Positions 51,436 through 52,344 of a stretch of DNA of 64,000 nucleotides are shown here, one piece after another; the first letter of the stretch is position 1, and every line of letters begins with the position of its first letter. Source of the stretch: Eledone cirrhosa. Its lineage: Eukaryota. The notes beneath the pieces are model-generated. The model was given only the letters and a program-made list of their open reading frames with translations. It searched no databases and was not told where the DNA came from. The DNA lies in contig OZ024747.1 of the NCBI GenBank assembly GCA_964016885.1, forward strand, positions 11,470,001-11,534,000, read 5' to 3'. Position numbers and translations under genes: made by a program.

Positions 51436-51470
<35 letters not shown>

Positions 51471-51716
51471 AACAAATAAGACCCCGACGGCAGAGCTCAA
51501 GCCAATTCGATGGCTATTTCTGGACTATTTCCGTTGAAACGACTTGAGCTCTGCCGTCGGGGGTCTTACTTTTTCCTATTTCCCACTCTACTACCCTAAG
51601 TATTGAGTACTCTGGTGCGTTATGGTCCATCTGGTTCCTTACCACAATTCCTTTGTTATATATATATATATGTTTAATATGGACTAGAACTGTTTCATTC
51701 GTGAGAAATCATCAGG

Positions 51717-51767
51717 AGCTTCCTCATGATTTCTCACGAATGAAACAGTTCTAGTCCTGTAGAAGCT
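51717..51767 (+). ncRNA. Type-I hammerhead-like fold (core G5 mutated in this copy)
   Basis: agcuuc-CUcAUGA-uuucucacgaau-GAAA-CAG..CUG-UA-gaagcu. Inverted partial copies at 51681-51716 and 51875-51921 retain CUGAUGA. Confidence 0.55.
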
Positions 51768-52344
51768 TTTCTATAATAATACTCTGCTTTGTATTGAGTA
51801 CCTTACTGTGGTTACCCCCGTTTGAACCCGGGATAAACTTATCTATCTATATATATAAAGTTTAATATAGAATTGGCTTCTACAAAACTAGAACTGTTTC
51901 ATTCAAAAGTAATCATCAGGCTTTCCTGAAGTCCCGTAGAAGCCATTTCTATATTAAACTTGATGTTTACACTCTACTAATGTATTGAGTACCTTACTAA
52001 CTGTGGTTACCCCCGATCGAATCCACGACTCTCTCTCTCTCTCTCACGCATATAAACTTTAAGCAAAGAATTTCTGCTTTCACTCTATACGTATATATGT
52101 ATATACGTATATACGTATATACATATATACAATCCTTATCGAACTCTCTTCGGAATTTTGCCTTCGTATTTATTATTACTATATATATATATATATATAT
52201 ATTACTATATATATATATATATATATATATTACTATATATATATATATATACATACATATATATATATATATATATAAGAGAGAGAGAGAGAGAGATCCA
52301 TATGTATGTCCCCCACCGGTGTGTATGTATCATCGATGTCTTAC

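What the first reader, a model, noticed from the sequence alone, without database searches (positions are those of the whole stretch)
51466..52030. Three short non-coding fold-back units with hammerhead-ribozyme motifs, separated by (TA)n
Seen: three ~170-190-bp units (~51466-51657, 51672-51845, 51860-52030) share one layout. Each has an inverted partial copy, then a forward copy, then a conserved GTATTGAGTAC motif; units 2 and 3 continue to GTGGTTACCCCCG. Unit 2 folds as a type-I hammerhead: 6-bp stem I agcuuc/gaagcu, CU(g>c)AUGA, GAAA, 4-bp stem III ACAG/CUGU, GUA site. The inverted arms of units 2 and 3 keep an intact CUGAUGA...GAAAC, and unit 1 keeps GAAACG...CGUC. Known: Penelope-like elements carry type-I hammerheads and often integrate with inverted 5' segments, and retrozymes are small non-autonomous hammerhead retroelements. 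Inference: this is a diversified retrozyme-like family that accumulates at TA microsatellites and may be mobilised by a PLE enzyme.
Basis: partly seen in the sequence, partly recalled or inferred. Interest (0 to 1): 0.8.

Follow-up and report, generated by a model that had tools for sequence, protein, structure and literature searches.

The report
Penelope retrotransposon stumps cut at promoter
The three small fold-back units are stump copies of the ribozyme-bearing ends of two protein-coding Penelope-like jumping genes; such stumps occur tens of thousands of times in this genome and mostly break off about 30 bases behind a TATA-like box, likely because the element's enzyme copies only the front of its own RNA.

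Summary
The three fold-back units and their hammerhead motifs are real (fold z -7.9, -13.7, -7.9), but they are not retrozymes. Unit 1 is the end (pLTR) of one Hydra-clade Penelope-like element (PLE); units 2 and 3 are ends of a second one. Copies with RT/GIY-YIG reading frames of both were found in the same genome. Each unit is a separate head-to-head insertion in (TA)n, with one tail-less and one tail-bearing arm, which is textbook PLE anatomy. None of the three holds a complete ribozyme on either strand. A shared tail motif has 80,695 exact matches (reversed control 0). The part not found in print: 80 of 88 sampled family A arms and 61 of 82 family B arms stop at one narrow site. In long copies that site lies about 30 nt behind a TATA-like box, at an initiator-like motif. 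This fits run-off copies of an RNA that starts in the pLTR and is primed internally. In family A the site lies inside loop II, so these stumps lack half of the ribozyme. The RNA start is inferred only; no RNA run was listed. The scan noted similar PLE stumps in two other genomes.

The parts
51439..51468 (.). (TA)15 target microsatellite left of unit 1
51469..51526 (-). Unit 1 (family A) tail-less inverted arm; its 5' end (51526) is exactly the common break site, A of AGTCC
51527..51530 (.). Unit 1 junction filler, a short re-copy of the arm's own letters (inferred)
   Evidence: sequence; junction variety
51531..51578 (+). Unit 1 forward arm: 3' half of the family A hammerhead only (end of stem II, GAAA 51536-39, stem III, GUC 51556-58, 3' strand of stem I); the 5' half is absent
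   Evidence: comparison with long copies
51579..51658 (+). Unit 1 tail (80 nt, on this arm only) with the bulged hairpin ending in GTATTGAGTAC (51600-51610)
51657..51671 (.). (TA)n spacer between units 1 and 2
51672..51716 (-). Unit 2 (family B) tail-less inverted arm: CUGAUGA...GAAAC kept, cleavage site and 3' strand of stem I deleted
51717..51775 (+). Unit 2 forward arm starting exactly at the family B break site (AGCTTC): minimal type I hammerhead with G5>C in the core and U.U in place of G10.1-C11.1
51776..51841 (+). Unit 2 tail with the shared hairpin motif (51791-51801) and the terminal CCCCG/CGGG stem
51842..51859 (.). TA-rich spacer between units 2 and 3
51860..51921 (-). Unit 3 (another family B subfamily) tail-less inverted arm: core, stem III and GUA kept, 5' strand of stem I missing, stem II mismatched
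51919..52029 (+). Unit 3 forward arm and tail: starts at the break site (GGCTTTC), hammerhead core deleted, shared motif at 51982-51992

Best explanation
The three units are independent, 5'-truncated, head-to-head insertions of the hammerhead-bearing ends (pLTRs) of two protein-coding Hydra-clade Penelope-like retrotransposons in one (TA)n tract, and they likely arise when the element's enzyme primes at the tail near the front of its own transcript and runs off the RNA's 5' end, which is predicted to lie about 30 nt behind a TATA-like box in the pLTR. Shown: the parent elements, the copy numbers, one tailed and one tail-less arm per insertion, the sharp break site, and its distance from the TATA-like box. 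Inferred steps: (1) the pLTR is a Pol II core promoter with its start at the break site. (2) The RT/GIY-YIG protein, probably as a dimer, cuts both strands of (TA)n and starts two cDNAs on the same RNA, one at the base of stem I and one at the tail end 70-80 nt further on. (3) With only 60-150 nt of RNA ahead of these sites, both cDNAs run off at the 5' end and are end-joined head to head, losing or re-copying a few bases. (4) The stumps lack the TATA box, and in family A half of the ribozyme, so they are probably dead ends that leave fresh TA flanks for the next insertion.
For: Parents. Family A long copies lead into RT and GIY-YIG frames. L291 holds an open frame of about 720 aa from its ATG, with RWR, DKT and CxCX5C motifs, and the tail reads straight into the 5' UTR and ATG. 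Family B tails read into a related frame (L371, 52% identity over aa 2-447); the two proteins are 48% identical over 406 aa. Counts of exact patterns: family A 3' half 58,133 against 5' half 6,262; family B core 35,493 against TATA-plus-core 5,325; tail motif 80,695; reversed-pattern controls 0-3. Break site: of 88 family A arms, 80 end within 17 nt upstream of the anchor, 0 between 18 and 59 nt, and 8 at 60 nt or more. Of 82 family B arms, 61 end at or downstream of about +1 and 21 run past the TATA box. The distance from the TATA-like start to the break is 29-31 nt in 60 of 63 family A long copies and 29-33 nt in 37 of 39 distinct family B sequences (mode 30), although the family B spacer diverges. 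Among 31 loci where the tail reads into the 5' UTR, 7 also begin at the break site, 16 are long and 8 had no anchor. Arms: 21 of 22 short pairs have exactly one tail. 16 of 22 share the subfamily marker, against 4.3 expected (maximum 9 in 2000 shuffles). In long pairs the tailed arm is the longer one in 7 of 13 scorable cases and the shorter in 6 (read by eye). 48 of 61 markers of short arms also occur in long copies. 139 of 141 family A and 52 of 63 family B tail ends abut (TA)n-type repeats. Literature: a purified PLE protein cuts and extends both strands and starts at two internal RNA sites that bracket the tail, and HHR cleavage is not needed (PMC11167929, parts 1-2 of 4 read).
Against: No RNA evidence for the start site. 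The test for a cap-derived extra G was inconclusive. The ends scatter from about 5 nt before to 6 nt after +1 in family A and further downstream in family B, partly because matching long references were missing. The break site contains an AG after pyrimidines in both families, as a 3' splice site would; in D. virilis Penelope the intron ends at helix I (PMC4209133), and the promoter there was reported as internal and TATA-less (PMC2377424, passages). Subfamilies are related, so the TATA spacing rests on two families, not on 100 independent cases. The samples come from the first 14-18 Mb of one contig, require exact patterns and count both arms of an insertion. The counting patterns differ in stringency, so the ratios are rough. 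In at least 1 of 22 pairs (L417) the arms carry different subfamily markers, and some family A arms are joined head to head to ends of other PLE families, so not every insertion used one RNA.
Confidence: 0.68

Rival explanations
1. The units are PLE stumps as above, but the sharp break is a reverse-transcription stop or an RNA processing site (ribozyme fold, bound protein, or a 3' splice site joined to a very short first exon), not the transcription start.
For: The break lies inside the hammerhead domain in both families (loop II in A, 5' edge of the 6-bp stem I in B). Both have pyrimidines followed by AG there. The D. virilis intron ends at helix I (PMC4209133).
Against: The site has a different structural position in the two ribozymes but the same distance from a TATA-like box. 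No constant exon-like filler recurs at the junctions. Several family B subfamilies have GG instead of AG at the site.
Confidence: 0.2
2. The short palindromes have become a self-propagating non-autonomous family (retrozyme-, SINE- or MITE-like) that is transcribed from short master copies and moved in trans.
For: Short arms outnumber long ones about 6-9 to 1. Some junctions recur (4, 4, 3 and 2 times among 36; 8 of 30 in a similarity-selected set). 13 of 61 markers of short arms were not seen in the long copies sampled.
Against: 27 of 36 junction strings are distinct and the loop orientation flips. There are no head-to-tail short tandems in 204 tail ends. Markers track those of long coding copies (48 of 61). 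Family A stumps cannot form the ribozyme, and the stumps lack the TATA box.
Confidence: 0.08
3. The inverted arm is made by snap-back of a single cDNA (or by self-priming on an antisense template, as proposed for Adineta PLEs) rather than by two separately primed cDNAs.
For: Both arms usually carry the same subfamily marker (16 of 22). Palindromes at PLE inversion junctions were read as self-priming in PMC3846280 (passages).
Against: Snap-back predicts that the tailed arm always reaches furthest 5', but it does so in only 7 of 13 long pairs. Head-to-head joins between different families exist. Later flipping of the spacer by recombination between the arms could hide the predicted bias, so this reading is weakened, not excluded.
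Confidence: 0.2

Closest known systems
Hydra-clade C-terminal EN+ Penelope-like elements (Craig et al. 2021, PMC8557442; section 11 and passages read)
   Same: Single RT + C-terminal GIY-YIG frame with RW-type, DKT and CxCX5C motifs; (TA)n targets; hammerhead in the pLTR; partial tandems; inverted 5'-truncated copy; tail at one end only.
   Different: The paper describes units under 3 kb and tails of 30-40 bp; here the family A tandem period is about 3.54 kb and tails are about 70-80 nt. A fixed break site that yields tens of thousands of stumps is not described in the passages read. Its supplements (consensus files S1, S2) were not read and may hold these families.
PAc (Poseidon, Anolis) in vitro mechanism (Frangieh et al. 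2024, PMC11167929; parts 1-2 of 4 read)
   Same: Both target strands are cut and extended; there are two internal RT start sites that bracket the tail; AT-rich targets; uncleaved RNA is the template.
   Different: A different clade. That work does not address the 5' ends of copies or the head-to-head joining; here the two start sites are seen as one per arm in 21 of 22 genomic pairs.
Minimal hammerheads of metazoan PLEs (Cervera and de la Pena 2014, PMC4209133; parts 1-2 of 4 read)
   Same: Type I fold, palindromic loop III, many single motifs from truncated PLEs, pairs on opposite strands 100-700 bp apart, and the U3-A8 core variant (family A).
   Different: Family B lacks G10.1-C11.1 (U.U in all 23 aligned copies). 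Family A has a 33-nt loop II that contains the break site. Activity is untested.
Animal non-LTR retrozymes (PMC7229834, abstract and outline; bioRxiv 10.64898/2026.07.22.740005, part 1 of 5)
   Same: Small, non-coding, type I hammerhead, PLE-related.
   Different: Retrozymes are head-to-tail tandem units with a complete ribozyme each and give circular RNAs. These units are head-to-head palindromes of coding elements with broken or halved ribozymes.
Adineta vaga Penelope pLTRs (Arkhipova et al. 2013, PMC3846280; passages read)
   Same: Inverted pLTR with palindromic junction, optional tail, putative TATA plus Inr in the pLTR.
   Different: Low copy number; the TATA/Inr was not linked to where copies end; the inversion was explained by self-priming.

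Membership tests
Penelope-like element (EN+) | Ends belong to an element with a single RT + GIY-YIG frame | tested here: met
   L291, L290, L287 (family A); L284, L324, L371 (family B): YRDD RT motif and IY..C...YIG nuclease read directly. Pfam support is weak (GIY-YIG E 0.069). 279 homologues, many with precomputed PF26215; that this accession marks PLE proteins is recalled.
Penelope-like element (EN+) | Partial or full tandems forming pLTRs | tested here: met
   445 tail-to-5'UTR junctions and arrays with a period of about 3.54 kb; L291; family B read-through in L347 and L371
Penelope-like element (EN+) | Inverted 5'-truncated copy, with a tail on one end only | tested here: met
   21 of 22 short pairs; 18 of 20 long pairs fetched show the tail motif once and on one strand, while L500 and L501 hold further elements
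Hydra clade | RWK-type motif, DKT, CxCX5C linker, (TA)n target | tested here: met
   L291: RLRWRT, SDKTG, CNCPDRSIC; family B: RIRWRA, SDKTK, CNCLNKEAC; targets
Hydra clade | Placement in the clade on an RT tree | not tested
   No named reference sequences were at hand; the assignment rests on motifs
Type I hammerhead (long parent copies) | Conserved core and three stems with covariation | tested here: met
   Family B: core letters invariant or nearly so over 23 copies; 94.9% of cells paired; 12 cells changed on both sides, 0 of 500 shuffles as high, but only 3 pairs and related sequences. Family A: U3-A8 core in 64 long copies picked by that core; the three-way fold is the minimum fold for L236 but not for L163.
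Type I hammerhead (long parent copies) | G10.1-C11.1 pair | tested here: not met
   Present in family A, absent in family B (U.U)
Type I hammerhead | Self-cleavage | not testable with these tools
   Needs an in vitro assay
Type I hammerhead (the three window units) | Complete core plus stems I-III on one strand | tested here: not met
Non-LTR retrozyme | Head-to-tail tandem units, each with a complete ribozyme | tested here: not met
   0 of 204 tail ends; the window units come from two families and are broken
Non-LTR retrozyme | Non-autonomous unit with no coding parent sharing the whole sequence | tested here: not met
   Whole units are sub-sequences of coding PLEs
Non-LTR retrozyme | Circular or linear monomer RNAs | not testable with these tools
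   No RNA holder listed

The most novel reading that the evidence does not exclude
Most insertions of these PLEs are 'strong-stop'-like run-off copies that record the element's transcription start in the genome at near-base resolution. In family A that start lies inside the ribozyme, so the promoter splits it: the front copy of the RNA carries only a substrate half and only the rear copy is a whole hammerhead. That would be a built-in way to keep the front priming site uncleaved, or to cut it in trans, and a direct clue to what PLE hammerheads are for.
Probability: 0.45. Interest if true: 0.62.

Novelty: new member of a known kind. Interest (0 to 1): 0.42.

Why it matters
As elements these are ordinary PLE debris, and short hairpin repeats of this kind are easy to misfile as MITEs, SINEs, miRNA hairpins or retrozymes. 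The useful part is mechanistic. How PLEs make their tandem and inverted insertions, and what their hammerheads do, is still open. A genome with more than 80,000 such ends offers in vivo statistics: one priming site per arm, a fixed 5' stop, and a TATA-like box 30 nt upstream. These turn the model into a simple test by 5'-end mapping and an in vitro reaction.

Tried and rejected
Rfam: no hammerhead match for the units or for 5 long copies; only hairpin and miRNA noise. A canonical CUGANGA upstream of family A: only 38 matches, and the 30 read were junction fillers, chimeras with other PLE ends or chance; the true core is UUGANAA. A tRNA-SINE reading of the family B tail on the minus strand (B-box-like letters) was dropped once the tail proved to be part of a PLE pLTR; no tRNA scan was run. 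A natural long stem II as the source of the family A palindrome was rejected by the long copies. Three other PLEs lying next to units were checked as parents and rejected: the abundant Neptune-like element, the 821-aa frame of L153 and the 1217-aa frame of L285/L286. Cap-derived extra G at -1: among 41 family A arms whose -1 base was not explained by the opposite arm, 8 were G, 1 A, 3 C and 29 T; several are explained by the opposite arm or the tail, and this group also held some long copies; inconclusive. RNA: no RNA holder listed. Contigs of three unlabelled runs show a depth step and strand-switch joints near the break site, but contig depth is no copy number and the runs may come from the window's own source, so they were not used as support. 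Pfam hardly recognises these proteins. Target-site duplications could not be judged inside (TA)n. Paper searches found no description of a promoter-linked truncation site in PLEs. The library lacks most subscription journals and Repbase reports, and supplements were not read. PMC13282606 and PMC6962438 (passages) mention PLEs or hammerheads only as counts.

Full report
Observation. The three units are at the stated places and fold back far better than shuffles (z -7.86, -13.72, -7.85). Unit 1 shares only a tail hairpin with units 2 and 3, so two families are involved, here called A (unit 1) and B (units 2, 3). Rfam does not recognise the ribozymes. By direct reading, none of the three units has a complete hammerhead on one strand.

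Copy number. The window lies in a 3.0-Gb animal genome. Its repeats look cephalopod-like to me; this is recalled and was not tested. Units 2 and 1 gave 1,366 and 3,697 first-look candidates; the best copies other than the units themselves were 85-90% and 88-93% identical. Exact pattern counts are whole-genome: the shared tail motif occurs 80,695 times, the family A 3' half 58,133 times and the family B core 35,493 times, with 0 for the reversed patterns. Arms are counted singly, so insertions are fewer, while decayed copies are missed.

Parents. Among the first 30 places listed for the tail motif, several ran on into shared upstream DNA. For family A this led to 3' UTRs and to RT and GIY-YIG frames. 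L291 holds an open frame of about 720 aa from its ATG between two pLTRs, and the upstream tail reads directly into the 5' UTR; 445 such junctions exist, some in arrays with a 3.54-kb period. For family B, a frame ending KPVLKPDG is followed by a 2.7-kb microsatellite-rich UTR and the family B end (L284, co-linear with L283 and L281), and B tails read into the start of a related frame. The two proteins are 48% identical over 406 aa. Both carry the RW-type, DKT and CxCX5C motifs that Craig et al. give for the Hydra clade, almost all families of which insert into (TA)n (PMC8557442, section 11). No tree was built.

Ribozymes in the parents. Family B has a minimal type I hammerhead with a 6-bp stem I that covaries between subfamilies (A-U/G-C and C-G/A-U; 12 cells changed on both sides, 0 of 500 shuffles as high, but only 3 pairs), an invariant core, a free tetraloop II, a near-palindromic loop III, and U.U in place of G10.1-C11.1. 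Family A has the U3-A8 core variant reported for Schistosoma PLEs (PMC4209133), a stem II of about 10 bp and a 33-nt loop II. Activity is untested.

Anatomy of the insertions. Of 22 short family A pairs, 21 have one tailed and one tail-less arm. In 16 both arms carry the same subfamily marker (random pairing 4.3, maximum 9). Tail ends abut (TA)n-type repeats in 139 of 141 family A and 52 of 63 family B cases, and none is followed by another short unit. 27 of 36 junction strings are distinct. In long pairs either arm may reach further 5' (7 against 6 of 13 scorable among 22 examined), and some family A arms are joined head to head to ends of other PLE families. This matches the known PLE pattern (PMC8557442, PMC3846280) and the in vitro finding that a PLE protein extends both target strands from two internal start sites (PMC11167929). 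It fits two cDNAs joined at their ends better than one snap-back, without excluding it.

The break site. The 5' half of the family A ribozyme occurs 6,262 times against 58,133 for the 3' half, which lies only 50 nt away; for family B the figures are 5,325 with the TATA box against 35,493. Of 88 family A arms from the first listed places, 80 end within 17 nt upstream of the anchor, none between 18 and 59 nt, and 8 beyond (values of 14 are inflated by chance matches to the opposite arm). Of 82 family B arms, 61 stop at or downstream of the stem I edge and 21 pass the TATA box. In long copies the site lies 29-31 nt (A, 60 of 63) and 29-33 nt (B, 37 of 39 distinct sequences) behind a TATTTA- or TATAAATA-type box, at a (T/C)A initiator-like step, although the family B spacer diverges (the promoter consensus is recalled). 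Copies that read through into the 5' UTR can begin at the same site (7 of 31 loci). The inverted arm of unit 1 and the forward arms of units 2 and 3 begin there.

Mechanism. I infer that the pLTR promoter starts the RNA at this site. Internal priming at the two tail sites near the front of the RNA then yields 60-150-nt run-off cDNAs, one on each target end, and these are end-joined into a palindrome. Long copies would come from priming at the rear pLTR or on tandem transcripts. The PLE origin is close to certain; the start-site step is unproven. No RNA run was listed, the cap-G test was inconclusive, and an AG with upstream pyrimidines keeps a splice or pause explanation alive.

Comparison and verdict. 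The units work like, and are members of, EN+ PLE insertions. They fail the retrozyme tests. Two earlier notes of this scan, seen only after this reading was reached, describe similar stumps in other genomes; the lines shown do not mention a promoter-linked break. Seven paper searches found no description of one. The elements are new members of a known kind, and the promoter-linked break with a split ribozyme is the part worth testing.

Noticed in passing
window:35959-36087: 3' end of a third PLE family with a complete-looking minimal hammerhead (CUGAAGA at 36030, 7-bp stem II); relatives are joined head to head to family A arms in L069 and L082.
   Followed up: partly
window:50282-50555 (minus strand): 3' end, with a hammerhead-like motif, of the PLE that has a 1217-aa, asparagine-rich frame in L285/L286 (81% identity); N-rich inserts were reported for Adineta PLEs.
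   Followed up: partly
L121-L150 (G000): A very young Neptune-like PLE: 22,554 first-look candidates, many identical nuclease domains and 777-aa open frames, and a U3-A8-type minimal hammerhead near its end (L077).
   Followed up: partly
L097, L117, L113, L114, L116, L119: Further short palindromic families share the bulged tail hairpin (with a UAC/GUA to UGC/GCA change in L113), suggesting a common recognition element for several PLE families here.
   Followed up: no
L062, L068, L074, L076: Family A arms joined head to head to the same end of another hammerhead-bearing element: two different RNAs in one insertion.
   Followed up: partly
L153:2129-4591: An 821-aa open frame of another Hydra-type PLE with inverted arms; its end also flanks several family B copies.
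   Followed up: partly
window:32802-34271 and 15706-16860: LINE-type RT frames with a PHD-like finger (RVT_1 E 1.8e-29 and 5e-16).
   Followed up: partly
window:55056-61769, 21207-24152, 2330-4059: Long minisatellite arrays (47 bp x 143, 27 bp x 110, 72 bp x 24); the hammerhead scan of the window found nothing in them.
   Followed up: partly
L284:6400-9119: The family B 3' UTR carries about 2 kb of (TA)/(TG) microsatellite, so the element spreads its own target, and other PLEs have inserted into it (L281, L286).
   Followed up: partly
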